Source: Orrella daihaiensis
GTDB taxonomy: Bacteria; Pseudomonadota; Gammaproteobacteria; Burkholderiales; Burkholderiaceae_B
Direction: 5' to 3'
DNA length: 32,000 nt
Assembly (NCBI RefSeq): GCF_022811525.1
Contig: NZ_CP063982.1
Coordinates: 1 to 32,000, forward strand
Numbering within the stretch: the first letter of the stretch is position 1; each line of letters begins with the position of its first letter. The position numbers were made by a program, and so were the translations under genes. The notes beneath the pieces were generated by a model. That model saw nothing but the letters and a program-made list of their open reading frames with translations. It searched no databases and had not been told where the DNA came from. Shown one piece after another: positions 17,850 to 32,000 of this stretch.

Positions 17850-18074
17850 ACCGAGGCTTATTCACTAACTTAACTTTTACTTGCTATTGATTTGTCGAGT
17901 TTTTACGACAGTGACTAAGGATATCGGCTGTAAATTTCTGGCAATATCCTTTCAACCCTGCCCTAACCGGCACTAAAACCGATTAGCCACCACAGTGAAG
18001 GACACAGTGTCATGGCGAGAGACCTGCATCTGCTTCGATTAGCCACTTGAATCTATGCCTGGCAGTCAACCATC

Positions 18075-19118
18075 CTAAAAACCAAAGAAGTTCAGTGGAC
18101 TTATTTCATAGTCCTCACCGACACCCCGCAGAATGATCAATGAATCATTACCGCCGAAGCTGCGGTGATCCTCGCGATTGAGAATGACCCATGTATCACC
18201 GGAATCTGCCGCGTTAGGGACGACATAGATATAAGGAATTTTTTCTGCGCGAGGATCATCAAAACCCTTGCTAAACACCTCATTCACTCGGGACTCAAGC
18301 TCGTAAAAACTTTCTGGCCCAGTCTCTTCAATCCAAACAAATCGCTCCATAATCTCAAAGGGACTGCCAGGCCCCCAAAAGGACAAGTCCGATGTCAATC
18401 TATCTTCGTCTGCGTTAAAGTCGATGATGACATCGGCTGATTCGAGTGTTGTGCCACTATCACCAGGCTCGAACCTAAATGTATCCGCACCTTCATTTCC
18501 AATCAGTACGTCCGCTCCCGCATGACCAATAATCCTGTCATTGCTACTACCACCAATTAGCGTATCAGAGCCTGCCGTGCCCTCAATGTGTTGCGGTAAG
18601 GAAATGCTCATATTTGTGAGAGCCGCTTTCACCCTAAGCACCTGCGACGGATCAGTGGTCACCCCATCAAGAGCGCCGTCCACCAACTGCTGATCATTGC
18701 TAGCTAGCGTCAATGCCACGTACTTTGCAACCTCAACCTTGTTGCGCACAATTGCGGTGTCATTCGTATCAACATCGTCACCACCAGCAAAGGCTGCCTC
18801 TATCTTGCCAACGGCAACCTCATAAAAAGTGTGACCTTGATCGATTTTGTTTAGCCAGTAATCAAGTCCCCGTGGATCAGCTGCCCGATCTAGTGCGTTT
18901 TGATAAAAACGGCGGATCGCTTCGGAGGCACTTAAGTCACCATAGTGCGACTGATATTCGTCACTCTTTGAAAACCCGACCGCCAGGTCATGAATAGTCG
19001 CTCCGTTACTGAGTGCTTGTACCCAGTGATTCATCCCTTCCGCCTCAGGGGCTCGACCAAAGAATACGATGTAGAGTTCAGCGACTTGGTTTTGATATGT
19101 TTGCAAGTCGGACGACAT
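18075..19118 (-). CDS. DUF4214-domain protein with a few RTX repeats and a T1SS-type C-terminal domain (347 aa from ATG 19118; the ORF is open to 19166)
   Basis: MSSDLQTYQNQVAELYIVFFGRAPEAEGMNHWVQAL aligns with the N-termini of the 6402-10031 and 19454-20557 products, which favours the 19118 start (GGAG upstream). RTX repeats GGSSNDRIIGHAGADVLIGNEGADTF. C-terminus GDTWVILNREDHRSFGGNDSLIILRGV. Confidence 0.85.
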   Translation of the reverse strand: MSSDLQTYQNQVAELYIVFFGRAPEAEGMNHWVQALSNGATIHDLAVGFSKSDEYQSHYGDLSASEAIRRFYQNALDRAADPRGLDYWLNKIDQGHTFYEVAVGKIEAAFAGGDDVDTNDTAIVRNKVEVAKYVALTLASNDQQLVDGALDGVTTDPSQVLRVKAALTNMSISLPQHIEGTAGSDTLIGGSSNDRIIGHAGADVLIGNEGADTFRFEPGDSGTTLESADVIIDFNADEDRLTSDLSFWGPGSPFEIMERFVWIEETGPESFYELESRVNEVFSKGFDDPRAEKIPYIYVVPNAADSGDTWVILNREDHRSFGGNDSLIILRGVGEDYEISPLNFFGF

Positions 19119-19453
19119 TGCCTTGTTCTCCATTTTCTGACTGTCCATTCGGATGGTTGAACTCACCTACACAAAAACAACTCATCACAAATAACACACT
19201 ATCACCGACCTAATCCTTCCACGTATGCTGAGGCGTACCAAATTCGGTAAACACTCGATTCACCCCTTGAAGCGTTTCTGCTTGATCCATTTGGTTAAGT
19301 CAATGTTTCCCAGACTCTCTTGATCGGAATAGATGTCGTTCACTCTATTTATCTGCTGTAAAGCGATCTACTTTTTGGGGAAGTAAGGATGCCTATCGAG
19401 GCGCCGACACACTAAGAAAAGGGGCACCAAATCGATAGGTAATCTCTTTGTGG

Positions 19454-20557
19454 TCACAGCATCAAATCAGGCTCAAGTTTGAAATGAAAATTGCTCAGCT
19501 CAAAACTATTTTGAACACCCTGAAGAATGACTAACGAATCTTCCGCATCAAAACTGGCTCGATCTCCACGATTAATCACCACCCAGGTGTCACCCGAGCC
19601 AAGCGCGTCCGCTACCGCATAAACAAAAGGAAATCCAACTAGTTGATGTTCTTTAGCTTCTTGAAAAGCCGTCGAAAATTTATCAGCTACTTTTTTGGCA
19701 AACAACTCAAAACCATCCTCTTGCAAAGCTCGATCTAAGCCGTGGTCTTGCTCTATCCATACGTATTCATCAACACGTACGTTGCTAGAAACGAGGTCGT
19801 GAATCTCAAGGAAGTTAGTCCCCAAAGAAAAATCCATAATGACATCAGCTGTTTGCAATGTGATACCACTGTCACCGGCTGCGAGAACAAATATATCGTT
19901 GCCCAAGCCGCCACTCAAAGTATCGGCCCCGTGAGCACCTATTAGCCTATCATTGCCAATACCACCTAACAACACATTAGGACCTGACGTTCCCTCGAGT
20001 ATTTTTGGTTGAGGATCGGCCTGTGCATAAAGCCAGTCTTCTGTGGTCCGAACAGAGGCAGGGTCTGCCGAAACGTTGTCAAACGCTCGACCGACTATAT
20101 GAGTTCCGCTGGCACCCAACTCCAATGCAACATACTTCGCAATCTCGACTTTATTACGCACAATCGCAGTATCTTCGGGATGCGTATTATCCCCCCCAAC
20201 AAATGCTGTCTCGATCTTGCCAACGGCAATCTCGGCAAACGTGTGGCCCTGTTTAAGTTTATTGAGCCAGAACTCTCTTCCTTCGGCATCCGGTTCCCGA
20301 TCGAGTGCGTTCTTATAAAAACGACGAATAGCTTGACTCACATCGGCATCACCATATGTGCTTGTAGATAGATCACCGTACATCTCTCGATATTCGGAAC
20401 TTCTTGCAAACTCATCTGCCAAGTCATTCATTGTGACAGCGCCATGGCTTAAAGCGCGCACCCAGTGGCTCATACCCTCAGCGTCAGGCGCACGCCCAAA
20501 AAATACGATGTATAGCTCAGCGACTTGGTTCTGATAGGTCTCTAACGGTGTTGCCAT
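19454..20557 (-). CDS. DUF4214-domain protein with a few RTX repeats and a T1SS-type C-terminal domain (367 aa); paralog of 18075-19118
   Basis: MATPLETYQNQVAELYIVFFGRAPDAEGMSHWVRAL; FYKNALDREPDAEGREFWLNKL; GGIGNDRLIGAHGADTLSGGLGNDIF; GDTWVVINRGDRASFDAEDSLVILQGV. Confidence 0.88.
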   Translation of the reverse strand: MATPLETYQNQVAELYIVFFGRAPDAEGMSHWVRALSHGAVTMNDLADEFARSSEYREMYGDLSTSTYGDADVSQAIRRFYKNALDREPDAEGREFWLNKLKQGHTFAEIAVGKIETAFVGGDNTHPEDTAIVRNKVEIAKYVALELGASGTHIVGRAFDNVSADPASVRTTEDWLYAQADPQPKILEGTSGPNVLLGGIGNDRLIGAHGADTLSGGLGNDIFVLAAGDSGITLQTADVIMDFSLGTNFLEIHDLVSSNVRVDEYVWIEQDHGLDRALQEDGFELFAKKVADKFSTAFQEAKEHQLVGFPFVYAVADALGSGDTWVVINRGDRASFDAEDSLVILQGVQNSFELSNFHFKLEPDLML

Positions 20558-20894: not shown

Positions 20895-22187
20895 TTAAGC
20901 CGCCAGCCAACTCTGCGAGTCGCCCAGGAGAGCAATATCGGCTGGGGTGACCATGAATGCCGCGACCGCCATATCACCACCACTACCAGCATAATTCACA
21001 TCATTGCGTGCGATTTCTCCACTGACCTTTTGATGTGCCTCTTCTGACTGGGCAATGATGGCCGCAATTTCAGCGCGCGTGAGCAAGCCGGCTTCGTAGG
21101 ACTCAGCCCAGTAGTTTTGTGCTGCTTGTTCAGGCTCTCGTTCAAGCACATTCACATAGAGTTTGCGCAAGTAATCAATATCCGATTCCGTGGCATCGGT
21201 CTTGAGTTCGTATTCGTATGAATCAATAAAATCCTGCGCAATGACCGCCAGTGACACTTGGCTATCGAGTATGCCCTTCCAATAGGCCAGCCCTTGTGCA
21301 TCTGGTGTGCGGCCCAATAGTGCTTGATAGAGAGCAAACAAATCATTCACACTGGCCAGATCATCATCTTGATAGACCTGCCCGACGGAATACAAATTGT
21401 CTTCAGACAAACCAAGCGCACCATTTGCGCCCGAATCACCATCTGGTCCATGGTGATAGATGCCGCTATCTCCACCCGGGCCGCCTTGACCTGCTTGCCC
21501 TCCGGCACCACCGGTACCGGCGTTCGATTCATAGGTGACCTTGTCTAGCCTTAATATGCCGGCATTAAAAAGTGCCCCAACGCCCGCACCACCTTCCCCA
21601 CCGTTGCCACCGTCACCGCCATGACCACCGTGCCACATTGTGCTGTAACCACCAATGCCACCTGCACCACCATTTCCACCGCCACCACCTCGAGCAATGT
21701 TGCCAATGAATTCAACGTTATAGAGAGAAACATTGGCACCGGCTGTGATCGCTAGCCCTGCTCCCAGGGCACTACCACCCACACCACCATTCTCGCCATT
21801 ACCACCACTGCCACCGCCACTGAACACGTGGTGACTGCCTGTACTGCCTTGGCCTCCATTCTCACCATGGACACCAATCAATTCACCACCGTAAAACGTG
21901 AGATTACCTATAAAGACACTCCCATCAAAAAGCGGCATGCCCAAGAGCCCGCGCCCATCAATCAGCATCAAGCCATTGCCATCACCCATGATTGAATGGC
22001 CCAGACCGTTGATGGTGAGGGAATCGCCCGACCGGACACCAAACTCAAAGTAATGAGTCGATCTAGACCAAACAGCTCCAGTTAGGTCGATATCAGTCGT
22101 GATGTAGATCGTGTCACTTTCAGCGTTCTCTGCTTGCTGAAAGAGTGCGTCTGCGAGCTCTTGTGCATTGTTGACGTAGTAATCCAA
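20895..22187 (-). CDS. Glycine-rich beta-helix-like repeat protein with C-terminal DUF4214-type repeats (430 aa)
   Basis: TTG start 8 nt after the stop of the upstream gene, with AGGA in between. The N-terminal half has GG(A/N)GG runs alternating with segments such as GAGLAITAGANVSLYNVEFIGNIARGGGGGNGG and GVGALFNAGILRLDKVTYESNAGTGGAGG, the pattern of parallel beta-helix / Pmp-like repeats. The C-terminal half has LYQALLGRTPDAQGLAYWKGIL and LYVNVLEREPEQAAQNYWAESY. Confidence 0.8.
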   Translation of the reverse strand: MDYYVNNAQELADALFQQAENAESDTIYITTDIDLTGAVWSRSTHYFEFGVRSGDSLTINGLGHSIMGDGNGLMLIDGRGLLGMPLFDGSVFIGNLTFYGGELIGVHGENGGQGSTGSHHVFSGGGSGGNGENGGVGGSALGAGLAITAGANVSLYNVEFIGNIARGGGGGNGGAGGIGGYSTMWHGGHGGDGGNGGEGGAGVGALFNAGILRLDKVTYESNAGTGGAGGQAGQGGPGGDSGIYHHGPDGDSGANGALGLSEDNLYSVGQVYQDDDLASVNDLFALYQALLGRTPDAQGLAYWKGILDSQVSLAVIAQDFIDSYEYELKTDATESDIDYLRKLYVNVLEREPEQAAQNYWAESYEAGLLTRAEIAAIIAQSEEAHQKVSGEIARNDVNYAGSGGDMAVAAFMVTPADIALLGDSQSWLAA

Positions 22188-22195: not shown

Positions 22196-24760
22196 CTATG
22201 AGTAAAGATCGCCAATCGAGTATGACGAAAACCGACTCATCACAAATAGATCATCCATTCCTACCTGACCAGTCGATGAGCTCTGTGACTCTGCCGAGGT
22301 GAGTAGGCTGATGATGAGCTCGCCCTCGGTTGCTTCATGCACCACCAACGCTTCGACCCAGTGGCTAAGTCCCTCGGTATCAGGGGCTCGGTCGAGGATC
22401 GCTTCGTAGAGCTCTTCGACCAGTTGTTCTTCTGATGGTGTGCCATACAGTTGTTTGAACTCTGTCGATTCGGCTAGCGCTTGTGCGACGTCTTGTAATG
22501 TCGCACCTTGGCTCATCTGTTCAACCCAGTACGTTAAGCCTTCAACATCAGGGCTACGACCCAACACCTCTTCATACAAATGATCTAACTCCTGATACGC
22601 CACACCGCTTGCCATCTGATCATCGGCTTTGATTAGCTCGGCATCGGAGAAAGTAATTCTCTCCACCCCTCTGACAATGATCCGGCCCTCGGGGCCATAG
22701 AGCGTGGCTTGTAGCTGCCCCTCAAAGGACTCTTGGGTGATCACATAGTCTGCCATGGCATTCGATAGCTTGACCGTGTCTTGACCCCCATTGCCTTGAA
22801 TCACCCAGTTACCCACGATGACTTCAAACACATTGTCTTGGGCGTTACCGGTGACCGTATTGTTCAGTCCGTTCTCGGTTAGACGGATATGTTCAATATC
22901 ATCGGGTAGTGCCACGTCTTGTTGGTGACCGTGGATGAGAAGATCAATATTGGCAGTACCTAGTCCTGTAGCCAGTGCACCGTGTTGCTCAACCGTGATG
23001 ACGTTACCCCCGGTGCTGTGGGTGGTCGTTGACGTCACAGCCGCTTCGGTATCTGACCCATCCCAGTAGAACTGAATGAGCTCTGACGCAAGTGACACGT
23101 TGCCTGCTGCATCCACTTGTCTGACCTGCACTTGATTCAGTCCTGACTGGGCTTCAAACGTATCGCTCCACGTCTGACCACCATCAATCGAGAACTCAAG
23201 TGTGGCTCCGTCTTCCACCTTGCCAAACGAGAGCTTGCCCGTGCTCGTACGAGGAATCGTATCGTTGCTATCTGCTGGTACAGCGGCTTTAAATGCGGGT
23301 GCAGCCAATGGAGCTGCAACCGCCACCCCATCAACCACCACCTCAGGTGCCTCAGGCGCTGTCGTGTCCAATACAAAGGTGATGGCCCGAGTAGCGGCTG
23401 AGGCCTGACCCAGTACATTGACCTGGCGAACATATAGGGTATTACTGCCTTCCTGGGCCGTAAACGTCTCGGACCACGTGGTGCCATCAGAGGAATATTC
23501 CACCCTTGCCTGAGGCCACACGCCAGAGACATCCAACTCAAACTTGCCCGTGATCTTGTCACCGGCGACTTGACCGTTCTCGTCTAACACCTGCACCCCT
23601 GGCACCGGTGTGACAATCTCGGGCAGGTTCGCCGCCGTGATGAACTCACTGAAACTACCCTGTACATCGCCCATCTGCAGGTTGTTCTCGCCACCAGTGC
23701 CAATCACCGTACGGCCCCGCAAGTCCGGCAAAGCAAATGTGGTGACGCCGTCGCCACCAAATGCCGTTCCAAGCAAGGAATACAAAGCGTCGTTATTCGC
23801 GATAGAAAGCAGTTGGCCTTGCGCAAGTACCCAACCATCTGGGATTCGCTGCCCGGCAAACAACATCACTTGACCGAGCATTGGGGTGTAATCGTCGTAA
23901 TACCAATAACCACCCCTTGTATTAATGATGTAGTTCATTCCCAGAGAAGGTTGCATCGTATTGACTAACTGACCTTGTGGCTCAGCAATGTCAACGTTGT
24001 TAAGGCTCAGCGATGAAGCACCTAGTTTTTGACCGGTATAAATCTGCTGACCATTGGACGCCAATCCTGTTCCGACCGGCACATGATTGCGCAAGTCTGG
24101 CAAAGCAAACGTATTAACGCCATCACCACCATATGCTCTGCCTAAAATTGAATAGAGCACTGGGTTGTCTCTGACACTCAATAGTCGACCGTCGGCCGGT
24201 AAAAAACCATCAGGTACTCCACCTTGAGTGGGTGCTGCGTAGGGGTACACCATCCCGATCGTGCTCAAGCTTGGTAGCCCGCCATTTGCTGGATAAAGGC
24301 CCGTGGTCTGAATGACATATTGCATGCCAAGCCCGTACTGCTGATTAGCAATAGGGTCTGAGAGACCACCCAACGCCGATGGCAACTGTCCAGGGGAAAT
24401 AAATTCAGTATTGTCTGGAGTACCCTGCGTGGTTCCCCAGAGAGTGGGGCCCGTGCCTTGTTTCAGATACAGAGGGGCTGCCCCTTGTAAATCAGGCAAT
24501 CGGTAGGTAGTCGACTGACTGCCGCCGTAGGTATTACCTAACAGCGCATACACCGCTTGATTGCTATTGATGTCTATCGTCTGACCATTGGCTTGTAAAA
24601 GTGTTTTGACACGCGAGGGATCAAACGCTGTCTGATAAATGAAACCCAGAAAGCTTGCATCATTCCCTCCCCCGCCATAAAAACTCGGGAACGGCCCTTG
24701 AAACACAAACGACTGTGGAAGTGCCAGAGCTGGTTGGCCTAAATTAACCGGGGTCGTCAC
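22196..24760 (-). CDS. Triple phage-tail-collar-domain protein with two Ig-like domains and C-terminal DUF4214 repeats (paralog 1, 854 aa)
   Basis: GTG start with AGGAGA 6 nt upstream. Collar (MdpB-like) signatures occur three times: LQANGQTIDINSNQAVYALLGNTYGGSQSTTYRLPDLQG; LPADGRLLSVRDNPVLYSILGRAYGGDGVNTFALPDLRNHVPVG; LAQGQLLSIANNDALYSLLGTAFGGDGVTTFALPDLRGRTVIG. Ig-like modules end in DTTAPEAPEV and DAAGNVS. C-terminal DUF4214 repeats: LYEEVLGRSPDVEGLTYWVEQM and LYEAILDRAPDTEGLSHWVEAL. Confidence 0.9.
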   Translation of the reverse strand: MTTPVNLGQPALALPQSFVFQGPFPSFYGGGGNDASFLGFIYQTAFDPSRVKTLLQANGQTIDINSNQAVYALLGNTYGGSQSTTYRLPDLQGAAPLYLKQGTGPTLWGTTQGTPDNTEFISPGQLPSALGGLSDPIANQQYGLGMQYVIQTTGLYPANGGLPSLSTIGMVYPYAAPTQGGVPDGFLPADGRLLSVRDNPVLYSILGRAYGGDGVNTFALPDLRNHVPVGTGLASNGQQIYTGQKLGASSLSLNNVDIAEPQGQLVNTMQPSLGMNYIINTRGGYWYYDDYTPMLGQVMLFAGQRIPDGWVLAQGQLLSIANNDALYSLLGTAFGGDGVTTFALPDLRGRTVIGTGGENNLQMGDVQGSFSEFITAANLPEIVTPVPGVQVLDENGQVAGDKITGKFELDVSGVWPQARVEYSSDGTTWSETFTAQEGSNTLYVRQVNVLGQASAATRAITFVLDTTAPEAPEVVVDGVAVAAPLAAPAFKAAVPADSNDTIPRTSTGKLSFGKVEDGATLEFSIDGGQTWSDTFEAQSGLNQVQVRQVDAAGNVSLASELIQFYWDGSDTEAAVTSTTTHSTGGNVITVEQHGALATGLGTANIDLLIHGHQQDVALPDDIEHIRLTENGLNNTVTGNAQDNVFEVIVGNWVIQGNGGQDTVKLSNAMADYVITQESFEGQLQATLYGPEGRIIVRGVERITFSDAELIKADDQMASGVAYQELDHLYEEVLGRSPDVEGLTYWVEQMSQGATLQDVAQALAESTEFKQLYGTPSEEQLVEELYEAILDRAPDTEGLSHWVEALVVHEATEGELIISLLTSAESQSSSTGQVGMDDLFVMSRFSSYSIGDLYS

Positions 24761-24893
24761 CGAAGCTCTCCTGACAAAGGGTGGTAAGACATTAGAGGAT
24801 TGCCCTCAAACATACCGATAGGTACGAGCAGTACCATGTTTTAAGGATTTTTAGCGGTTTTAGCAACAAAAAATTGTGACCAATACAAGTAAC

Positions 24894-27416
24894 TTATCCC
24901 GGCACAAACAACCCATTACCGCTGACTTGGTTCGTCGACGCACTCTGCGACTCTGCCGAGGTGAGTAGGCTGATGATGAGCTCACCCTCGGTTGCCTCAT
25001 GCACCACCAGCGCTTCGGTCCAGTAGGCAAGCCCTTCAGTGTCAGGGGCTCTGTTTAATATGGCTTCGTAGAGTTCCTCGACCAGTTGTTCTTCTGACGG
25101 TGTGCCGTACAGCTGCTTGAACTCTGTAGACTCGGCTAGCGCTTGAGCGACGTCTTGTAATGTCGCTCCTTGGTTCATCTGCTCAACCCAGTACGTTAAT
25201 CCTTCAGCATCAGGGCTGCGTCCCAAGACTTCTTCGTACAGATGATCGATTTCGGTGATGTCTGTGCCAGTGGTTTTGATGAGGGTGACATCACTGAACT
25301 CGATCGTCTCAACGTCTCTGACAATGATCCGACCCTCGGGGCCGTAGAGCGTGGCTTGGAGTTGCCCGTTAAGTTGACCGTTATGGGACTCTTGAGTGAT
25401 CACGTAGTCTGCGAGAGCGTTCGATAGCTTGACCGTATCCTGACCCCCACTGCCTTCAATCACCCAGTTACCGACGATGACTTCAAACACGTTGTCTTGG
25501 GCGTTACCGGTGACCGTGTTGTTCAGTCCATTCTCAGTTAAGCGGATGTGTTCAATGTCATCGGGTAGTGCCACATCTTGTTGGTGACCGTGGATGAGAA
25601 GATCAATATTGGCAGTACCTAGTCCTGTAGCCAGTGCACCGTGTTGCTCAACCGTGATGAGATTGCCACCGGTGCTGTGGGTGGTCGTTGACGTCACAGC
25701 CGCTTCGGTATCTGACCCATCCCAGTAGAACTGAATCAGCTCTGAGGCAGGTGACACATTGCCAGCCATATCCACTTGTCTGACCTGCACCTGATTCAGT
25801 CCAGGTTGAGCTTCAAACGTATCGCTCCACGTCTGACCACCATCAATTGAGAACTCCAGTATGGCACCGTCTTCGACCTTGCCAAACGAGAGCTTGCCCG
25901 TGCTGGTGCGAGGAATCGTATCGTTGCTATCTGCTGGTACAGCGGCTTTAAATGCGGGTGCTGCCAATGGAGCTGCAACCGCCACCCCATCAACCACCAC
26001 CTCAGGTGCCTCAGGGGCTGTCGTGTCCAATACAAAGGTGATGGCCCGGGTAGCGGCTGAGGCCTGACCCAGTACATTGATCTGGCGTACATACAGGGTA
26101 TTACTGCCTTCCTGGGCCGCAAACGTCTCGGACCATGTCGTGCCGTCTGTGGAATACTCCACCCGCGCCTGAGGCCACACGCCCGCAATATCCAACTCTA
26201 ACTTGCCGGTGACCTTATTACCACTGATCTGGCCCGGCTGCACAACGAGTTGTACGCCCGGCACAATAACCGGGAAATCGACACTTCCCTCCGGTAATGC
26301 GCTGACCGCGGACCCTTGTTTATCACCGATTTGCAAGTTGTTCACACCACCTGTTCCGATGATTGCTCGTCCACTTAGGTTAGGCAGGGCAAACGTCACC
26401 TCACCATCACCACCGAAATGAGTGCCCAATAATGAAAACAAAGCCTGATGCTGGGCGATTGCCAGAACCTGGCCTTGCGCCTGCATCCAGCCTCCAGGCA
26501 GGTACTGACCCGCATACAGTGTCACCTGACCGAGCATCGGGTAATTGGTGTCGTAGGCCTGATATAGACCATCGGTATTGATGATGTAACGCATCCCGAG
26601 TGAAGGTGGTTGTACATTCACTTGCCCACTACCAACAACGGGTAAGTTATGGTCCGTGATCACAGTTTGGGCTGCCCCAAGCACACTACCCGCAAGCAAC
26701 TCATCACCGCCTGGTATCAATCCCATTCCAACTGGGACGCGGTTACGCAAATCGGGTAATGCAAAGGTGTTCACACCATCGCCACCATAAGTTGTGCCCA
26801 CTACAGCGGCCAAGGCTTTGTATTCATCGATGTTCAACAAACGGCCATCTGCTGGTAAAAACCCAGCTGGCATCCGCTCAGATTCAACCGGTCCTGCAAA
26901 TGGATACACCATGCCTATGGTCGTCATGGTGGGAGAGTTACCAGATGGGAATGTTCCGCTGACCTGAATCAGGTACTGCATCGTCAATGCTTCTTGCTGA
27001 TTGTCAATCGGTATGGATCTACCACCAAGCTCCGGTGGCATTTGCCACTGGTTCAACGTTATCTGATTACCGGGGTGGCCAAGTTCGGCTCCCCAGATAG
27101 GATGAGCCTGACCTTCAAAAGTCTGTGTTTTGACGAAGGGCATAGACCCTTGCAGGTCTGGCAACTTGGGGTTACCGTCCCAGTACGTATTGCCTAGAAG
27201 GCTATACAACGGGGTAGCCGCATTCAAAAACTGACCTTGAGCGGGCGCGACTGTTTGAATCCGCGTTGGTTCAAACGCGAGATTCAGTATGAAGCCAAGC
27301 GATGCCGCTGTACCATAACCATCCGGTCCACCCTGGAAGTTCGGAAACATGCCACCGGTCACGATCACCTGTGGCATTGCCACACTGGGCATTGCAATCG
27401 AAATTGGCTCTGACAC
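24894..27416 (-). CDS. Triple phage-tail-collar-domain / Ig-like / DUF4214 protein (paralog 2, 840 aa)
   Basis: GTG start with GGGAGAG 5 nt upstream. Same architecture as paralog 1. The first collar unit is degenerate (LYSLLGNTYWDGNPKLPDLQG). The second and third are canonical (LPADGRLLNIDEYKALAAVVGTTYGGDGVNTFALPDLRNRVPVG; QAQGQVLAIAQHQALFSLLGTHFGGDGEVTFALPNLSGRAIIG). Confidence 0.9.
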   Translation of the reverse strand: MSEPISIAMPSVAMPQVIVTGGMFPNFQGGPDGYGTAASLGFILNLAFEPTRIQTVAPAQGQFLNAATPLYSLLGNTYWDGNPKLPDLQGSMPFVKTQTFEGQAHPIWGAELGHPGNQITLNQWQMPPELGGRSIPIDNQQEALTMQYLIQVSGTFPSGNSPTMTTIGMVYPFAGPVESERMPAGFLPADGRLLNIDEYKALAAVVGTTYGGDGVNTFALPDLRNRVPVGMGLIPGGDELLAGSVLGAAQTVITDHNLPVVGSGQVNVQPPSLGMRYIINTDGLYQAYDTNYPMLGQVTLYAGQYLPGGWMQAQGQVLAIAQHQALFSLLGTHFGGDGEVTFALPNLSGRAIIGTGGVNNLQIGDKQGSAVSALPEGSVDFPVIVPGVQLVVQPGQISGNKVTGKLELDIAGVWPQARVEYSTDGTTWSETFAAQEGSNTLYVRQINVLGQASAATRAITFVLDTTAPEAPEVVVDGVAVAAPLAAPAFKAAVPADSNDTIPRTSTGKLSFGKVEDGAILEFSIDGGQTWSDTFEAQPGLNQVQVRQVDMAGNVSPASELIQFYWDGSDTEAAVTSTTTHSTGGNLITVEQHGALATGLGTANIDLLIHGHQQDVALPDDIEHIRLTENGLNNTVTGNAQDNVFEVIVGNWVIEGSGGQDTVKLSNALADYVITQESHNGQLNGQLQATLYGPEGRIIVRDVETIEFSDVTLIKTTGTDITEIDHLYEEVLGRSPDAEGLTYWVEQMNQGATLQDVAQALAESTEFKQLYGTPSEEQLVEELYEAILNRAPDTEGLAYWTEALVVHEATEGELIISLLTSAESQSASTNQVSGNGLFVPG

Positions 27417-27486
27417 TGGATCTCTCCCGTTATATCTTACTATTTATTCTGCGCACTCGGTCAGGCTCGCTCTGACCAATCATTCA

Positions 27487-30024
27487 TCAACCCAACACAA
27501 ACAACCCACCAGTGCCGACCTGTGTCGTTGACATGCCTTGCGATTCTGCTGACATCAGCAGGCTGACAATCAACTCGCCCTCGGTTGCCTCATGCACCAC
27601 CAGTGCTTCAGTCCAGTAGGCAAGCCCTTGCGCGTCAGGGGATCTATTTAAGATGGCTTCATAGAGTTCTTCTACGAGTTGTTCCTCTGACGGTGTGCCG
27701 TACAGTTGTTTGAACTCTGTCGATTCGGCTAGCGCTTGCGCGACGTCTTGTAATGTCGCTCCTTGGTTCATCTGGTTCACCCAGTAGGTCAAGCCTTCCA
27801 GATCTGGCATGCGTCCCAGTACTTCCTCATACAGATGATCAATCTGCGCAATGTCTGTGCCGTCTGTTTTGAGGAGCGTGGCATCACTGAACTCGATCGT
27901 CTCAATGTCTCTGACAATGATCCTGCCCTCTGGACCATAGAGCGTGGCTTGTAGCTGCCCCTCAAAGGACTCTTGGGTGATCACATAGTCTGCCATGGCA
28001 TTCGATAGCGTGACCGTGTCTTGACCCCCATTGCCTTGAATCACCCAGTTACCCACGATGACTTCAAACACATTGTCTTGGGCGTTACCGGTGACCGTAT
28101 TGTTCAGTCCGTTCTCGGTTAGACGGATATGTTCAATATCATCGGGTAGTGCCACGTCTTGTTGGTGACCGTGGATGAGAAGATCAATATTGGCAGTACC
28201 TAGTCCTGTGGCCAGTGCTCCGTGTTGCTCAACCGTGATGAGATTGCCACCGGTGCTATGCATTGTTGTGGACGTCACAGCCGCGTCGGTATCTGACCCG
28301 TCCCAGTAGAACTGAATCATGTCTGAGGCAGGTGACACATTGCCAGCCATATCCACTTGTCTGACCTGCACCTGATTCAGTCCAGGTTGAGCTTCAAACG
28401 TATCGCTCCACGTCTGACCACCATCAATTGAGAACTCCAGTATGGCACCGTCTTCGACCTTGCCAAACGAGAGCTTGCCGGTGGCAGTGCGGGGAATCGT
28501 TGCATCATCAGAGGGTGTAGCGGGAACGCTGAAAGCGCTGGGAACAGCTGCCTTAAACATCGGGGCGAGCTCAACAATATTGCCGATGGTCAAGTTGGTT
28601 AGATTGATCTCGGGTACTTCTGGAGATGTTGTGTCCAGCACAAAGTTGATCGGGCTACTGGCTTCAGACGGCAAATTGAATAGCGCCACTTGCCGTACAT
28701 ACAATGAGTTGTTGCCTTCTTGTGCCTCGTAAGTCCCAGACCACGATGTGCCATTGGTCGAGTACTCCACCCGCGCTTGCGGCCAGACTCCCGAGATGTC
28801 AAGCTCAAACTGGCCGGTGATCTTATTGCCTATTGCGGATCCATTGGCGTTTAACAACTGAACGCCAGGTACAGGAACCGTGATTTCAGGGAAATTGTTC
28901 AACGACACGTACTGTTCTGCGCTGCCCTGCGTTTCACCGAGTTGCAGATTGTCTGACCCCCCGGTACCTACGACGGTGCGGCCGCGCAAATCTGGCAGGC
29001 CGAAAGTCGTGGCGCCATCTCCGCCGAACGTGTTGCCGAGCAACGAATATAAATCCTTATTGCCACTGATAGATAACAACTGACCTTGTGCCAGGGACCA
29101 GCCGCTCGGGAGATAAGAGCCCGCATACAACATGACTTGGCCTAGGAGGGGTGTGGCGCCGTTTTCCGGTAGTCCTGTGGTCGAACCCTCGGTGCTGATT
29201 ACGTAATGCATGCCCAAAGAGGGCTGCATAACTGGGATAGTCCAGCCATCCGGGTCATTGGGCGCCAATAAATTTGTGCTGGTTACACCGAGTTTCTCAC
29301 CAAGCCGGACATCCGTGCCAGAAGAAGAGACTCCGACGGGCACTCGGTTGCGCAAATCGGGCAATGCAAATGTAGAAAACCCATCCCCGCCGTAGGTGGT
29401 CCCAAGCACGGCGTGAAGTGAAGGGAAATCCGAGATCTGTAGCAAACTGCCATCAGCCGGTAAAAAGCCATTGGGCAGACCACCACGAGAAGGTGAGGCA
29501 AACGGGTAAACCATGCCGATGGTATTAAGCGAAGGCGAAGAACCCGCCGGAAACATGCCCTCAGCTTGAATCACATACTGCATACCCAAACCAAACTGTT
29601 TCAGATCTATCGGTGAAGACCAACCACCGAGCGTAGTGGGTAATTGGTGCAAACCAAGCTCAACCTCAGTGTTCGACCCCCCCTGGGTCTGCCCCCACTG
29701 AGCCCCGCCACCGCTCGCACTCAAATACAGTGCTGCTGCACCTTCTAGATTCGGCAAAGAGAAATTGATCATCCCGTTACCGCCGTATGTGCTCCCGAGT
29801 AGCGAGAACAAATCGACGTTGGACACGATGCTCATCAAGCTTCCATCGGCTGGCAACAGTTGTGGCTCTCGCGTCGAATTGATATCAAACGCAGTTGTCA
29901 CCATAAAACCGATGCTTCCGCCTGGATCCGGAGATCCGCCACCGAAGCTCGGATAAAGCCCGCTGGCAATAATTGACTGCGGCAGCGCAATAGAAGGTTG
30001 TGCAAGATTGACTGGCGTTGCCAC
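27487..30024 (-). CDS. Triple phage-tail-collar-domain / Ig-like / DUF4214 protein (paralog 3, 845 aa)
   Basis: GTG start with AAGGAG 7 nt upstream. Collar units: LPADGSLMSIVSNVDLFSLLGSTYGGNGMINFSLPNLEG; LPADGSLLQISDFPSLHAVLGTTYGGDGFSTFALPDLRNRVPVG; LAQGQLLSISGNKDLYSLLGNTFGGDGATTFGLPDLRGRTVVG. Confidence 0.9.
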   Translation of the reverse strand: MATPVNLAQPSIALPQSIIASGLYPSFGGGSPDPGGSIGFMVTTAFDINSTREPQLLPADGSLMSIVSNVDLFSLLGSTYGGNGMINFSLPNLEGAAALYLSASGGGAQWGQTQGGSNTEVELGLHQLPTTLGGWSSPIDLKQFGLGMQYVIQAEGMFPAGSSPSLNTIGMVYPFASPSRGGLPNGFLPADGSLLQISDFPSLHAVLGTTYGGDGFSTFALPDLRNRVPVGVSSSGTDVRLGEKLGVTSTNLLAPNDPDGWTIPVMQPSLGMHYVISTEGSTTGLPENGATPLLGQVMLYAGSYLPSGWSLAQGQLLSISGNKDLYSLLGNTFGGDGATTFGLPDLRGRTVVGTGGSDNLQLGETQGSAEQYVSLNNFPEITVPVPGVQLLNANGSAIGNKITGQFELDISGVWPQARVEYSTNGTSWSGTYEAQEGNNSLYVRQVALFNLPSEASSPINFVLDTTSPEVPEINLTNLTIGNIVELAPMFKAAVPSAFSVPATPSDDATIPRTATGKLSFGKVEDGAILEFSIDGGQTWSDTFEAQPGLNQVQVRQVDMAGNVSPASDMIQFYWDGSDTDAAVTSTTMHSTGGNLITVEQHGALATGLGTANIDLLIHGHQQDVALPDDIEHIRLTENGLNNTVTGNAQDNVFEVIVGNWVIQGNGGQDTVTLSNAMADYVITQESFEGQLQATLYGPEGRIIVRDIETIEFSDATLLKTDGTDIAQIDHLYEEVLGRMPDLEGLTYWVNQMNQGATLQDVAQALAESTEFKQLYGTPSEEQLVEELYEAILNRSPDAQGLAYWTEALVVHEATEGELIVSLLMSAESQGMSTTQVGTGGLFVLG

Positions 30025-30157
30025 GGCTCATCTCCTTTTTAGTTCGATTGCTTTTTGTGACAACTCGCCACAGATCACTGCGCTTTAACTATACGATCAA
30101 TCTGTGACCACTTGGTTCAATAAATTGTGATTGATGTAAAGCACGCGATGTAAGCAA

Positions 30158-30192
30158 ATGCCCAGTTTCCATCGAAACTGGGCATGTTTTTT
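30158..30192 (+). other. Perfect 12-bp stem-loop followed by T6 (terminator-like in plus-strand orientation) between collar paralogs 4 and 3
   Basis: ATGCCCAGTTTC-catc-GAAACTGGGCAT-g-TTTTTT. On the minus (coding) strand the hairpin sits 46 nt after the paralog-4 stop but is not followed by a T run. Confidence 0.5.
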
Positions 30193-30230
30193 ACACGGAC
30201 ATCACGTCAATTACTCACATGACTAATAGC

Positions 30231-32000
30231 CTATCCCAGCACGAACAAACCAATCGCACCAGCCTGGTGCATTGACGCACTCTGCGACTCTGCGGAAGTG
30301 AGCAGGCTGACAATCAACTCACCCTCTGTGGCCCCATGCACCACCAACGCTTCGGTCCAGTAAGCAAGTCCTTGCGCGTCAGGAGATCGATCGAGAATCG
30401 CTTCGTAGAGTTCTTCTACGAGTTGTTCCTCTGACGGTGTGCCGTACAGTTGTTTGAACTCTGTAGATTCGGCTAGCGCTTGGGCGACGTCTTGTAATGT
30501 CGCTCCTTGGTTCATCTGCTCAACCCAGTACGTTAATCCTTCAGCATCAGGGCTACGACCCAACACCTCTTCATACAAATGATCGATTTCGGTGATGTCT
30601 GTGCCGTCAGTTTTGAGGAGGGTGACATCACTGAACTCGATCGTCTCAACGTCTCTGACAATGATCCGACCCTCGGGGCCGTAGAGCGTGGCTTGGAGTT
30701 GCCCGTTAAGTTGACCGTTATGGGACTCTTGAGTGATCACGTAGTCTGCGAGAGCGTTCGATAGCTTGACCGTATCCTGACCCCCACTGCCTTCAATCAC
30801 CCAGTTACCGACGATGACTTCAAACACGTTGTCTTGGGCGTTACCGCTGACGGTATTGTTTAGTCCGTTCTCGGTTAGACGGATGTGTTCAATGTCATCG
30901 GGTAGCGTCACGTCTTGCTGGTGACCGTGGATGAGAAGATCAATCGAATCCGTCCCTAGGCCTGTAGCCAGTGCCCCGTGTTGCTCAACCGTGATGACGT
31001 TACCCCCGGTGCTGTGGGTGGTCGTTGACGTCACAGCCGCTTCGGTATCTGACCCATCCCAGTAGAACTGAATCAGCTCTGAGGCAGGTGACACATTGCC
31101 AGCCATATCCACTTGTCTGACCTGCACCTGATTCAGTCCAGGTTGAGCTTCAAACGTATCGCTCCACGTCTGACCACCATCAATTGAGAACTCCAGTATG
31201 GCACCGTCTTCGACCTTGCCAAACGAGAGCTTGCCCGTGCTGGTGCGAGGAATCGTATCGTTGCTATCTGCTGGTACAGCGGCTTTAAATGCGGGTGCTG
31301 CCACCGCTACTCCATCAATTACCACCTCAGGTGCCTCAGGGGCTGTCGTGTCCAATACAAAGGTGATGGCCCGAGTAGCGGCTGAGGCCTGACCCAGTAC
31401 ATTGACCTGGCGTAAATATAAAGTGTTAGTGCCTTCCTGGGCCGTAAACGTCTCAGACCACGTGGTGCCATCTGTGGAATATTCCACCCGAGCCTGCGGC
31501 CATACACCTGAGACATCCAACTCAAACTTGCCCGTGATCTTGTCACCGGCGACTTGACCGTTCTCGTCTAACACCTGCACTCCTGGTACCGGTGTCACAA
31601 TCTCGGGCAGGTTTGCAGCCGTAATGTACTCACTAAAGCTGCCCTGTGTGTCACCAATCTGCAGGTTGTTCACGCCACCGGTGCCCACAATCGTACGACC
31701 CTGCAAGTCGGGGAGCGCAAATGTGGTGACGCCGTCGCCACCAAAACGGGTGCCAAGTAGAGAATATAGCGATGACGTGTCGTCGGTAATCTCTATCATC
31801 TGACCTTTCGCAAAGGTCCACTCATCCGGTATGTGTGCCCCTGCGTACAGGAGCACTTGAGCCATCATTGGTTTACCTTCATTGAATGTGCCATATGGGC
31901 CTTCGAGGATAATCACATAGTTCATACCCAAGGACGGCTGCATGACCGAAACCGCAGAGTCACCGGCGATATCAGGCTGCAGCAGGCTTAACGGCGCCAC
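30231..32000 (-). CDS. Triple phage-tail-collar-domain / Ig-like / DUF4214 protein (paralog 4, partial; N-terminus lies beyond the window end)
   Basis: The frame is open to the window edge. The visible part starts at the end of collar unit 2 (QPSLGMNYVIILEG), followed by collar unit 3 (FAKGQMIEITDDTSSLYSLLGTRFGGDGVTTFALPDLQGRTIVG), Ig-like modules and DUF4214 repeats. Confidence 0.9.
   Translation of the reverse strand: MAPLSLLQPDIAGDSAVSVMQPSLGMNYVIILEGPYGTFNEGKPMMAQVLLYAGAHIPDEWTFAKGQMIEITDDTSSLYSLLGTRFGGDGVTTFALPDLQGRTIVGTGGVNNLQIGDTQGSFSEYITAANLPEIVTPVPGVQVLDENGQVAGDKITGKFELDVSGVWPQARVEYSTDGTTWSETFTAQEGTNTLYLRQVNVLGQASAATRAITFVLDTTAPEAPEVVIDGVAVAAPAFKAAVPADSNDTIPRTSTGKLSFGKVEDGAILEFSIDGGQTWSDTFEAQPGLNQVQVRQVDMAGNVSPASELIQFYWDGSDTEAAVTSTTTHSTGGNVITVEQHGALATGLGTDSIDLLIHGHQQDVTLPDDIEHIRLTENGLNNTVSGNAQDNVFEVIVGNWVIEGSGGQDTVKLSNALADYVITQESHNGQLNGQLQATLYGPEGRIIVRDVETIEFSDVTLLKTDGTDITEIDHLYEEVLGRSPDAEGLTYWVEQMNQGATLQDVAQALAESTEFKQLYGTPSEEQLVEELYEAILDRSPDAQGLAYWTEALVVHGATEGELIVSLLTSAESQSASMHQAGAIGLFVLG

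What the first reader, a model, noticed from the sequence alone, without database searches (positions are those of the whole stretch)
22196..32000. Tandem array of four paralogous 'triple tail-collar' proteins (3x collar + 2x Ig-like + DUF4214)
Four consecutive minus-strand genes (22196-24760, 24894-27416, 27487-30024, 30231->32000) encode proteins of about 850 aa with the same unusual architecture.

In paralog 1 the layout is:
- aa ~35-158, ~166-285 and ~293-380: three copies of the phage tail-collar / MdpB-like signature (L.a.G..l.......L..LLG..yGGdG..tFaLPDLrgr..vG ... QPSLGMnYiI.t.G);
- two Ig-like modules;
- a degenerate repeat stalk;
- two DUF4214 repeats at the extreme C-terminus.

Established knowledge: collar domains in phage short tail fibres and in small MdpB-type proteins act as homotrimers.

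Inference: three collar units in one chain could fold into an intramolecular pseudo-trimer, giving a single-chain receptor-binding head on an Ig-like stalk.

The proteins have no signal peptide and no canonical RTX nonapeptide run. No phage or tailocin structural genes lie nearby. I know of no characterised protein with this domain order, but I could not search.
Basis: partly seen in the sequence, partly recalled or inferred. Interest (0 to 1): 0.85.

Follow-up and report, generated by a model that had tools for sequence, protein, structure and literature searches.

The report
Single-chain phage-fibre heads on secreted stalks
Orrella daihaiensis carries an array of genes in which three copies of a phage tail-fibre 'collar' unit are joined in one chain and predicted to fold into one compact binding head, with different heads mounted on a near-identical stalk and tail that looks built for type I secretion and surface attachment; no member has been studied experimentally.

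Summary
Four tandem minus-strand genes, the last cut by the window end, encode ~840-aa proteins. Each has three Collar units (Pfam E 5.7e-54), two Ig-like domains, a beta-roll-like segment, two DUF4214 repeats and a disordered tail. The source is Orrella daihaiensis, which has a fifth paralog.

The pseudo-trimer idea is supported:
- AlphaFold2 gives aa 1-397 as one rigid body (pLDDT 93.4, pTM 0.91).
- Relatives carry an HxH metal motif in all three units or in none.
- In 50 of 80 related loci the same module is three adjacent single-collar genes.

The architecture is not unique. About 30 protein clusters share it, and the triple-collar head occurs in hundreds of protein families with other anchors. 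I found no solved structure or paper on it. Phage genomes held only single units.

Heads are 50-57% identical with saturated synonymous sites. Tails are 76-87% identical with 158-298-nt identical tracts, which indicates gene conversion.

Two homologs (61-64% identity) lie directly after a LapB-type type I secretion operon with SapC, glycosyltransferases and other DUF4214 genes. The window itself holds five more DUF4214 genes and four RTX-repeat genes.

Best reading: secreted, surface-attached lectin-like fibres with variable heads. Novelty: new variant of a known kind. Interest 0.6.

The parts
22196..24760 (-). Paralog 1 (854 aa; WP_243478793.1, annotated 'tail fiber protein')
   Evidence: ORF. 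Pfam Collar x3 and DUF4214 x2. Exact match in the protein collection.
23606..24760 (-). Paralog 1 head, aa 1-385: three [hairpin + collar + insert] units predicted to form one compact pseudo-trimer
   Evidence: AF2 pLDDT 93.4, pTM 0.91. Unit-to-unit alignment.
24686..24748 (-). N-terminal beta-hairpin (aa 5-25, QPALALPQSFVFQG), homologous to the two internal QPSLGMNYII strands; proposed to close the ring
   Evidence: Alignments. Block pLDDT 90-98.
24467..24649 (-). Collar unit 1 (aa 38-98), the most diverged unit (PDLQGAAP in place of PDLRGR)
24074..24259 (-). Collar unit 2 (aa 168-229)
   Evidence: 69% mean identity among the five paralogs.
23705..23875 (-). Collar unit 3 (aa 296-352); aligns to the T4 gp12 receptor-binding domain (1ocy)
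   Evidence: Pfam best stretch 296-352. PDB phmmer E 8.2e-5.
23321..23605 (-). Ig-like beta-sandwich 1 (aa 386-480)
   Evidence: AF2. Foldseek matches to adhesin stalks: GhpA, MpIBP, intimin.
23045..23269 (-). Ig-like beta-sandwich 2 (aa 498-572), preceded by a disordered Ala/Pro/Val linker (aa 481-497)
   Evidence: Pfam CHB_HEX_C and Big_13. AF2.
22628..23044 (-). Beta-rich segment (aa 573-711): degenerate RTX-like beta-roll plus cap (…VERITFSD…)
   Evidence: AF2 strand periodicity. Weak Foldseek match to the RTX lipase 3a6z. No Pfam RTX hit.
22271..22627 (-). Two DUF4214 repeats (aa 712-830), helical, with a phycobilisome-linker-like fold
   Evidence: Pfam E 1.6e-26. Foldseek probability 1.0 to PF00427 linker domains.
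22199..22270 (-). Disordered C-terminal tail (aa 831-854), a candidate type I secretion signal; it differs in paralog 1 from the …GLFV[LPV]G ending of the others
   Evidence: AF2 pLDDT below 50. Alignment.
24894..27416 (-). Paralog 2 (840 aa; identical to P0004)
27487..30024 (-). Paralog 3 (845 aa; WP_243478794.1)
30231..32000 (-). Paralog 4, C-terminal 589 aa; the full protein is 838 aa (P0002)
30158..30185 (.). Perfect 12-bp-stem palindrome between paralogs 4 and 3, terminator-like
20895..22187 (-). Next gene, 8 nt after paralog 1: pectate-lyase-like N-terminus, Gly-rich region and DUF4214 x2
17162..20557 (-). Three more DUF4214 genes: 19454-20557 and 18075-19166 (N-terminal DUF4214 plus RTX) and 17162-17749 (DUF4214 x3)
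6402..10031 (-). 1209-aa protein with N-terminal DUF4214 and 13 RTX stretches, a classical type I secretion substrate
13024..15969 (-). 981-aa protein with Big_13 x2 and RTX x7, adhesin-like

Best explanation
Each gene encodes a monomeric, fibre-like protein. It is most likely exported without a Sec signal by a type I secretion system (T1SS) and kept on the cell surface.

**Head (aa 1-385).** It is a single-chain version of the trimeric collar/receptor-binding domain of phage short tail fibres. Three [hairpin-collar-insert] units of one chain pack around a pseudo-threefold axis. The N-terminal hairpin takes the place of the missing closing strand of unit 3. This step rests on structure prediction and comparative sequence evidence.

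**Role of the head (inferred).** It acts as a lectin-like binding module. Its specificity would be set by the three inserts and links, which are the most variable segments among the paralogs.

**Tail.** Two Ig-like domains form a monomeric stalk. The degenerate beta-roll, the DUF4214 pair and the disordered C-terminal tail form a conserved module for export and for attachment to the producer's envelope. The LPS/O-antigen is the suggested attachment target, by analogy with the DUF4214 protein Psh. This step is inferred.

**The family.** The five paralogs are old, distinct heads on one tail that gene conversion keeps uniform. The cell therefore has a repertoire of binding specificities on one common export and anchor chassis.

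**Why a single chain (inferred).** A T1SS threads one unfolded chain at a time and the stalk is monomeric. Joining three units in one chain removes the need for trimer assembly outside the cell.
For: **Domains.** Collar x3 and DUF4214 x2.

**Compact head.**
- AF2 gives pLDDT 93.4 and pTM 0.91 for aa 1-397.
- The 25 invariant columns of the head alignment are only G, P, L, F and A. That fits a structural or binding module, not a catalytic one.
- HxH is present in all three inserts in 26/28 generic triple-collar proteins, in none in 2/28, and in none in 30/30 of the DUF4214 family. In trimeric fibres, including T4 gp12, three HxH motifs build one on-axis metal site (PMC6116203).
- The same head is encoded as three adjacent differentiated single-collar genes in 50 of 80 related loci across many phyla.
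- The hairpin is permuted to the N-terminus.

**Not a phage part.**
- 138 phage records match, but none covers 80% or more of the head.
- BFVD and PHROG matches cover single units only.
- Homologs sit among housekeeping genes.

**Secretion.**
- There is no signal peptide, whereas the PEP-CTERM relatives have one.
- Homologs P0007 (64% identical) and P0010 (61%) lie immediately downstream of OEP, a LapB-type ABC and an AprE-type MFP. SapC, glycosyltransferases and other DUF4214 proteins sit beside them.
- The window holds five further DUF4214 genes and four RTX-repeat genes.
- The C-terminal 24 aa are disordered.

**Anchor.**
- DUF4214 occurs at either end of neighbouring proteins, so it is a module and not a secretion signal.
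- Psh (RTX plus DUF4214) is T1SS-exported and acts at the cell surface (bioRxiv 10.64898/2026.09.02.748959).

**Stalk.** Foldseek matches adhesin stalks: GhpA, MpIBP and intimin.

**Variable head, constant tail.**
- Heads are 50-57% identical, with pS about 0.8 (saturated).
- Tails are 76-87% identical. They contain 158-298-nt identical tracts and blockwise conflicting site patterns.
- Paralog 1's head is closer to foreign proteins (72% and 70%) than to any sister paralog (57%).
Against: - No T1SS genes lie in the window. No Orrella protein appeared among the 120 best relatives of the T1SS ABC next to the homolog, so the cognate exporter in this genome is unverified.
- Three of the homolog loci examined have no T1SS nearby.
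- There is no canonical RTX repeat.
- The pseudo-trimer packing rests on one AF2 run, and I could not inspect its coordinates.
- Foldseek finds no whole-module analogue, so the model cannot be checked against a solved structure.
- The family lacks the HxH site of gp12-like heads, so ligand binding may differ from phage fibres.
- The link between DUF4214 and LPS comes from one preprint. [quoted passage not shown]
- No ligand, localisation or phenotype data exist.
Confidence: 0.55

Rival explanations
1. Psh/Sap-like surface coat. The proteins coat the producer's own LPS and mask receptors against phages or predators, or form an S-layer-like array. The head may bind the cell's own LPS, as gp12 binds the LPS core. 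The paralog array would then provide antigenic or specificity variation by recombination, not adhesion to foreign targets.
For: - Psh (RTX plus DUF4214) is T1SS-secreted and protects against 16 phages.
- The homolog loci combine SapC, a T1SS, several DUF4214 proteins and glycosyltransferases. This resembles the C. fetus sap locus, which has sapCDEF, multiple sapA/B copies and LPS-glycosylation genes (PMC4943207).
- The tails show recombination mosaics.
- A whole island of DUF4214 proteins lies in the window.
Against: - No PADLOC hit, although that library predates Psh.
- There is no evidence of lattice formation.
- The paralogs are full-length genes in direct orientation, each with its own SD and start codon, with no invertible promoter.
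- Old, saturated head divergence fits distinct external ligands at least as well.
Confidence: 0.22
2. They are tail fibres of a prophage, tailocin or contractile injection system encoded elsewhere, as the RefSeq name 'tail fiber protein' implies. They would be used as homotrimers attached to a baseplate.
For: - The collar domain is homologous to T4 gp12 and to phage tail proteins.
- Integrase genes lie in the window.
Against: - There are no phage structural genes in 32 kb.
- Phage genomes contain only single units.
- The variable end is N-terminal and the conserved end C-terminal, the reverse of phage fibres.
- The stalk is made of Ig beads, not a trimeric shaft.
- Homologs are solitary or adjacent to a T1SS.
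- DUF4214 and the beta-roll are features of secreted proteins.
Confidence: 0.04
3. The three units do not close on themselves. The chains swap units with one another, for example three chains forming three mixed trimers, which would give an oligomeric fibre.
For: - The parent fold in gp12 is an intertwined trimer (1ocy hit; established knowledge of that structure).
- AF2 was run on a single chain only.
Against: - A monomer pTM of 0.91 indicates a self-sufficient fold.
- The N-terminal hairpin permutation supplies exactly the missing strand.
- The stalk domains are of the kind found in monomeric adhesins.
Confidence: 0.1
4. They are diffusible lectin-like bacteriocins or effectors that are released and act on competitor cells, and are not retained on the surface.
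For: - Variable targeting heads on a constant chassis resemble polymorphic toxins and lectin-like bacteriocins (my own knowledge).
- T1SS substrates are often released.
Against: - No toxin or enzymatic domain was detected.
- No immunity-like small ORFs sit between the paralogs.
- The invariant residues are structural only.
Confidence: 0.07

Closest known systems
T4 gp12 short tail fibre, C-terminal collar and receptor-binding domain (PDB 1ocy/1h6w; Pfam PF07484)
   Same: Collar sequence motif (…FGGDG.TTFALPDLRGR…) and the closing strand after an inserted head. Unit 3 aligns to 1ocy at E 8.2e-5, and Foldseek gives rmsd 1.9 A over 56 columns. Threefold arrangement around an axis.
   Different: gp12 is a homotrimer of three chains with an HxH metal site, and it is part of a virion. 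Here the three units are in one chain, the hairpin is permuted to the N-terminus, there is no HxH, and there is no phage context.
Three-gene operons of ~175-aa single-collar proteins (COG4675 'MdpB, microcystin-dependent protein'-like), uncharacterised
   Same: Same unit (collar, insert, QP.L.LNYII hairpin), always in threes: 50 of 80 related loci across Proteobacteria, Bacillota, Actinomycetota, Acidobacteriota, Bacteroidota, Verrucomicrobiota and Planctomycetota.
   Different: Three separate polypeptides, each with HxH and a C-terminal hairpin, and no stalk or anchor. The fused units do not map one-to-one onto genes 1-3.
Signal-peptide + triple-collar + PEP-CTERM (or MYXO-CTERM, FG-GAP, Hint, RTX) proteins, annotated 'microcystin-dependent protein' or 'tail fiber protein'
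   Same: Same fused head of ~380 aa with the hairpin first, 35-44% identical.
   Different: They are Sec-exported, carry HxH in all three units, and use other anchors. The Orrella family has no signal peptide and no HxH, and has an Ig stalk, a beta-roll and DUF4214.
Psh (PP_1794) of Pseudomonas putida: RTX + DUF4214, T1SS-secreted phage shield (bioRxiv 10.64898/2026.09.02.748959)
   Same: C-terminal DUF4214 next to an RTX-type region. T1SS association is shown for Psh, and seen as an adjacent T1SS for homologs here. Glycosyltransferase or O-antigen genes lie nearby in the homolog loci.
   Different: Psh has no collar head and no Ig stalk. Here the RTX repeats are degenerate, and no phage-resistance data exist.
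Campylobacter fetus sap locus (sapCDEF T1SS + multiple sapA/sapB S-layer genes)
   Same: Multi-copy family with a conserved part and a variable part, and recombination between copies. A SapC homolog, a T1SS and LPS-glycosylation-type genes lie in the homolog loci.
   Different: No sequence homology of the cargo. No inversion system and no evidence of an S-layer. From my own knowledge, not checked here: the conserved part of SapA is N-terminal, whereas here it is C-terminal.
RTX adhesins exported by LapB-type T1SS (LapA, MpIBP)
   Same: Beads-on-a-string Ig-like stalk (Foldseek hit to 5irb). The ABC next to the homologs is LapB-type. No Sec signal.
   Different: Far smaller (0.85 kDa x 100, not megadalton). 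No recognised N-terminal retention module. The binding head is N-terminal, not near the C-terminus, and there are no canonical RTX repeats.

Membership tests
Pfam Collar (PF07484) | Significant match to the profile above the gathering score | tested here: met
   180.4 bits against a cut-off of 24, with 3 stretches in paralogs 1 and 3 and 2 stretches in paralog 2.
gp12-type trimeric receptor-binding domain | Closing beta-strand after the insert that completes the collar | tested here: met
   QPSLGMNYII-type hairpins at aa 140-160 and 269-285, plus an N-terminal copy at aa 5-25.
gp12-type trimeric receptor-binding domain | HxH motif forming an on-axis six-histidine metal site | tested here: not met
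   0 of 30 family members have HxH in any insert, while 26/28 generic triple-collar relatives have it in all three.
gp12-type trimeric receptor-binding domain | Homotrimer of three chains that is part of a phage tail | tested here: not met
   Three units lie in one chain. AF2 gives a monomer pTM of 0.91. No phage genes are in the window. No phage record holds the whole head.
Pfam DUF4214 (PF13946) | Significant match above the gathering score; helical repeat | tested here: met
   92.6 bits against a cut-off of 23.2, with 2 stretches. AF2 shows helices, and Foldseek gives probability 1.0 to phycobilisome-linker domains.
Type I secretion substrate (RTX type) | Canonical GGxGxDxUx nonapeptide repeats | tested here: not met
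   No HemolysinCabind hit at E<=0.01. Only degenerate motifs are present (GNAQDNVFE, GNGGQDTVK), with beta-roll-like strand spacing in AF2.
Type I secretion substrate (RTX type) | No N-terminal Sec signal; unstructured C-terminal signal | tested here: inconclusive
   The N-terminus is a structural hairpin, not a signal peptide. The last 24 aa are disordered. T1SS signals have no reliable sequence test.
Type I secretion substrate (RTX type) | Genetic linkage to ABC, MFP and OMP genes | tested here: inconclusive
   Not in the window. Present immediately upstream of homologs P0007 and P0010. Absent near P0013, P0018 and P0024.
Psh-like RTX-DUF4214 phage shield | T1SS-dependent export and phage resistance through surface masking | not testable with these tools
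   Only the domain resemblance and the T1SS-plus-glycosyltransferase context of homologs could be shown.
MdpB/COG4675 single-collar proteins | ~175-aa single unit with a C-terminal hairpin, encoded in a trio | tested here: not met
   Here the three units are fused, the hairpin is permuted to the N-terminus, and they are followed by ~470 aa of other domains.
PEP-CTERM triple-collar proteins | Sec signal peptide and C-terminal PEP-CTERM sorting signal | tested here: not met
   Neither is present. Compare P0040, P0058, P0105 and P0112.
LapA-type retained adhesins | N-terminal retention module with a LapG cleavage site; LapD/LapG genes | not tested
   No such domain was detected by Pfam or NCBIfam. 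There was no dedicated search for LapG or LapD.

The most novel reading that the evidence does not exclude
Bacteria have repeatedly turned a trimeric phage receptor-binding domain into a single-chain, self-closing 'lectin head'. One possible route runs through an ancient three-gene heterotrimer; the direction of that change (fusion or fission) is unresolved. The head can be bolted onto any export or anchor chassis.

In Orrella, five such heads share one tail that recombines between copies. That would make the array a built-in repertoire of surface binding specificities: a specificity-variation system for cell-cell or cell-particle recognition, or for phage decoy or shielding. DUF4214 would act as the general LPS-attachment module of a whole island of type I-secreted proteins.
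Probability: 0.3. Interest if true: 0.8.

Novelty: new variant of a known kind. Interest (0 to 1): 0.6.

Why it matters
- **A testable structure.** The work gives a concrete structural hypothesis for a very large, unstudied group annotated 'tail fiber protein' or 'microcystin-dependent protein'. That group spans 31,630 50%-identity clusters at E<=1e-3, of which at least 614 appear to be multi-collar.
  - The fused form would be a single-chain pseudo-trimer.
  - The three-gene form would be a 1:1:1 heterotrimer.
- **A handle on DUF4214.** The finding links DUF4214, a widespread domain whose first functional data appeared in a 2026 preprint, to a modular family of secreted surface proteins. It provides a natural experiment of five heads on one tail for asking what the tail does and what the heads bind.
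- **Annotation.** A monomeric gp12-like head would be a compact scaffold for engineering glycan binders. These genes should also stop being counted as prophage or tailocin markers.

Tried and rejected
- **Flank beyond 32000.** The look-up of encoding contigs failed for P0002, P0004 and P0011. I therefore could not see what lies upstream of paralog 4 or where the fifth paralog sits.
- **Whole-head structural analogue.** Foldseek against the PDB and BFVD gave only single-unit matches, with TMq at most 0.21. Foldseek compares single chains, so it cannot show threefold packing. I relied on pTM instead.
- **The T1SS of Orrella itself.** A search with the ABC protein from L084 returned no Orrella protein among the best 120.
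- **One-to-one mapping of fused units U1-U3 onto operon genes g1-g3.** The differences were at most 4 bits, so this is unresolved.
- **dN/dS for the heads.** Synonymous sites are saturated (pS 0.76-0.81), so it is not computable.
- **In-frame junctions.** 80 of 100 operon junctions are in frame. I considered stop-codon read-through or a fission origin, but I do not trust the excess. The loci were ranked by tblastn with a fused query, which favours in-frame layouts.
- **Databases without hits.** PADLOC gave none. NCBIfam gave nothing useful for the paralogs. Rfam found nothing in the array.
- **Literature.** Searches for tail collar with T1SS, PEP-CTERM or pseudo-trimer, for PF07484, and for 'microcystin-dependent protein' found no study of multi-collar proteins. 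The term 'MdpB' returned only dental-chemistry papers.
- **Phase-variation or shufflon idea.** Rejected: there are no inverted repeats, and the integrases lie more than 18 kb away beside IS copies.

Full report
**1. What is in the sequence**

Four consecutive minus-strand ORFs lie at the stated coordinates: 22196-24760 (854 aa), 24894-27416 (840 aa), 27487-30024 (845 aa) and 30231->32000 (589 aa visible). Each complete gene starts with GTG 6-8 nt after a Shine-Dalgarno sequence. The intergenic spacers are 133, 70 and 206 nt, are unrelated to one another, and the last contains a perfect 12-bp palindrome. Direct-repeat analysis recovers the array, with a period of 2.58-2.76 kb. No ORF of 150 aa or more lies on the opposite strand, and Rfam finds nothing in the array.

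Exact look-ups identify the source as Orrella daihaiensis (Alcaligenaceae), from a 2.80-Mb contig.
- Paralog 1 is WP_243478793.1 and paralog 3 is WP_243478794.1. Both are named 'tail fiber protein'.
- Paralog 2 is P0004. Paralog 4 is P0002, 838 aa in full.
- A fifth paralog of 834 aa (P0136, UOD50394.1) exists in the same genome.

**2. Domain anatomy**

Pfam confirms three Collar units, at E 5.7e-54. Paralog 2 has only two passing stretches. Pfam also confirms two DUF4214 repeats (E about 1e-27) and a weak Ig-type hit at aa 506-560.

AF2 of aa 380-854 (pLDDT 83.8) resolves the following:

| Residues | Feature |
|---|---|
| 380-480 | Ig-like beta-sandwich 1 |
| 482-497 | Disordered linker |
| 498-570 | Ig-like beta-sandwich 2 |
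| ~575-711 | Beta-rich segment, with short strands about every 9-10 residues over aa ~620-665 |
| 712-830 | Helical DUF4214 pair |
| 831-854 | Disordered tail |

Foldseek matches the Ig pair to adhesin stalks: GhpA, the MpIBP ice-binding adhesin and intimin. It matches the DUF4214 pair to phycobilisome-linker domains at probability 1.0, and matches an RTX lipase only weakly. There is no canonical RTX repeat.

The head is three homologous units, each made of a hairpin, a collar and an insert. The 'QPSLGMNYII' hairpin occurs at aa 5-25, 140-160 and 269-285. There is none after collar 3.

**3. Is the head an intramolecular pseudo-trimer?**

Four lines of evidence agree.

(a) AF2 of aa 1-397 with a 58-sequence alignment gives pLDDT 93.4 and pTM 0.91. 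All five models score at least 92.2, and the N-terminal hairpin scores 90-98. Three independent beads would not give such a pTM.

(b) Generic relatives carry an HxH motif in each insert in an all-or-none way. 26 of 28 have it in all three inserts, 2 of 28 in none, and the DUF4214 family has it in 0 of 30. In trimeric fibres, including T4 gp12, three HxH motifs from three chains build one octahedral metal site (PMC6116203). All-or-none behaviour is what three cooperating repeats would show.

(c) Of the 80 best loci in one-genome-per-species contigs, only 23 encode a fused protein. Fifty encode three adjacent ~175-aa single-collar genes with 3-30-nt spacers. These occur in Proteobacteria, Bacillota, Actinomycetota, Acidobacteriota, Bacteroidota, Verrucomicrobiota and Planctomycetota. 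The three positions form coherent classes across loci, for example g3-g3 170.6 bits against about 145 for mixed pairs. A conserved, differentiated trio implies a 1:1:1 assembly, and the fused protein is its single-chain counterpart.

(d) In the small genes the hairpin is C-terminal. In the fused proteins it comes first and is missing after unit 3. This permutation makes sense only if the ends meet in a closed ring.

There are limits. I could not inspect coordinates. Foldseek compares single chains and found only single-unit matches: 1ocy at rmsd 1.9 A over 56 columns, with TMq at most 0.21 everywhere. Sequence search of the PDB finds only gp12 (E 8.2e-5) and one other short tail fibre.

**4. 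How common is it?**

The full architecture (Collar x3 plus DUF4214, 820-885 aa) is found in about 30 clusters at 90% identity, mostly from metagenomes, at 36-73% identity.

The head module is widespread. Among 1.84 billion representatives, 31,630 match at E<=1e-3, 7,352 at E<=1e-10 and 614 at E<=1e-30. Most of the top 150 match over all three units. The head is fused to PEP-CTERM, MYXO-CTERM, FG-GAP/VCBS, Hint, RTX and other modules. A few proteins contain 9-11 units.

Phage genomes contain only single units: 138 records match and none covers 80% or more of the head. PHROG hits are likewise single-unit.

Literature searches found no study of multi-collar proteins. The only functional mentions are a collar protein in a Ruegeria exoproteome (PMC4949626) and Pfam-style remarks.

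**5. Evolution of the array**

| Comparison among paralogs | Value |
|---|---|
| Heads | 50-57% identical; pS 0.76-0.81, saturated |
| Collars | 44-69% identical |
| Insert 2 | 29% identical |
| Links between units | 28-30% identical |
| Tails | 76-87% identical overall |
| Ig2 / beta-roll / DUF4214 | 92% / 91% / 87% identical |

Paralog 1's head is nearer to foreign proteins (72% and 70%) than to any sister paralog (57%).

The tails contain identical tracts of 298, 199 and 158 nt between different pairs. The expected number of such tracts under uniform divergence is 1e-17 to 1e-27. Parsimony-informative sites switch in blocks: p1+p4 against p2+p3 at first, then p1+p3 against p2+p4. The heads are therefore old and distinct, and gene conversion homogenises the tails.

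The invariant head columns are only G, P, L, F and A. That points to a binding or structural role, not a catalytic one.

**6. Context and likely mechanism**

The window is a mobile-looking island.
- It carries an integrase (1-1206) and an integrase fragment (3300-3890).
- It carries two 99.6%-identical IS copies, at 4099-5322 and 15940-17166.
- It carries a 7TMR-DISM kinase and response-regulator pair.
- It carries five further DUF4214 genes. Three of them also have RTX repeats, and in those three DUF4214 is N-terminal.
- It carries a Big_13 + RTX protein.

DUF4214 is therefore a position-independent module, not a secretion signal.

Homologs P0007 (64% identical) and P0010 (61%) lie directly downstream of OEP, a LapB-type ABC and an AprE-type MFP. 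SapC, glycosyltransferases and other DUF4214 proteins lie beside them. Three other homologs are solitary among housekeeping genes.

A 2026 preprint shows that Psh, an RTX-DUF4214 protein of P. putida, is exported by a T1SS. The authors propose that it masks phage receptors by binding the O-antigen of LPS, and they state that they cannot determine exactly how it interacts with the O-antigen.

The layout of the homolog loci also recalls the C. fetus sap locus, which combines sapCDEF, many sapA/B copies and LPS-glycosylation genes (PMC4943207).

I therefore favour the following model. The proteins are exported by a T1SS as single unfolded chains. The beta-roll, DUF4214 and C-terminal tail serve export and attachment to the producer's envelope. 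The Ig-like domains form a monomeric stalk. The pseudo-trimeric head is presented as a lectin-like binder. Whether the biological role is adhesion and recognition or a Psh/Sap-like shield is open.

**7. What is shown and what is inferred**

- Shown: the ORFs, the domains, the paralog mosaic, the taxonomic spread, the trio operons, the HxH pattern and the T1SS adjacency in homologs.
- Predicted: the compact head and the domain folds.
- Inferred: secretion in Orrella, anchoring by DUF4214, ligand binding by the inserts, and the advantage of a single chain for T1SS export.

**8. Verdict**

The proteins are not phage tail fibres in function or context, so the RefSeq name is misleading. The kind is known: the collar fold, T1SS-type surface proteins and DUF4214. 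The single-chain closed form and its combination with this chassis and a recombining paralog array are a new, uncharacterised variant. Interest is 0.6.

Noticed in passing
L020-L080 (e.g. L021:9976-11620, L044:10009-11611, L040:9946-11533): 50 of the 80 best related loci encode three adjacent ~175-aa single-collar genes, each with collar, HxH insert and a C-terminal hairpin. They occur across at least seven phyla, and gene position is conserved across loci. This looks like an ancient, unstudied heterotrimer operon. L036 carries nine such genes.
   Followed up: partly
Same trio loci (junctions between genes 1/2 and 2/3): 80 of 100 junctions keep the next gene in the same frame with only one stop codon between the ORF fragments, against about 1/3 expected. 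The excess may be a selection artefact, because the loci were ranked by tblastn with a fused query. In the unselected operons of L036, 2 of 4 junctions are in frame. Read-through or a fission origin is not excluded.
   Followed up: partly
window 4099-5322 and 15940-17166: Two 99.6%-identical 1.23-kb IS copies (HTH_29-type transposase ORFs) lie in direct orientation. They bracket the 1209-aa DUF4214+RTX gene, the 7TMR-DISM kinase/response-regulator pair and the Big_13+RTX gene, in a composite-transposon-like layout. Rfam psRNA2 (RF02349) matches at 4009-4213 and 15871-16054 overlap their left ends, so that 'sRNA' may be IS-associated sequence.
   Followed up: partly
window 17162-22187 and 6402-10031: Five further DUF4214 genes with different cargo lie here: pectate-lyase-like plus Gly-rich, RTX, and DUF4214 only. 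In the three RTX-bearing ones DUF4214 is N-terminal. The island looks like a collection of secreted proteins that share one attachment module.
   Followed up: partly
window 22199-22270 (paralog 1 C-terminus): Paralog 1 ends …DDLFVMSRFSSYSIGDLYS, whereas paralogs 2-5 end …GLFV[LPV]G. Its stop codon lies only 8 nt before the next DUF4214 gene, so the edge of the duplication unit falls inside the putative secretion signal.
   Followed up: no
window 22196-24760 and 27487-30024: The original GenBank annotation truncates paralogs 1 and 3 to 492 and 357 aa (UOD51494.1, UOD51495.1), missing the heads. The RefSeq versions are full length with GTG starts.
   Followed up: yes
P0138, P0036: Some relatives have many more collar units: 11 matched stretches in a 4832-aa protein and 9 in a 795-aa protein. 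The latter may be three stacked pseudo-trimers.
   Followed up: no
L084:1-9790 and L088:198-9501: The homolog loci combine SapC, OEP, a LapB-type ABC, an MFP, several DUF4214 proteins and large glycosyltransferases. This organisation resembles the Campylobacter fetus sap S-layer locus.
   Followed up: partly
window 1-1206 and 3300-3890: A tyrosine integrase with an Arm-binding domain is cut by the window start, and a second integrase fragment follows. ARAGORN found no tRNA gene in the window, so the island boundary was not located.
   Followed up: no
window 5324-6253: A 309-aa minus-strand ORF next to the IS copy has no match in Pfam, NCBIfam, PADLOC or PHROGs.
   Followed up: no
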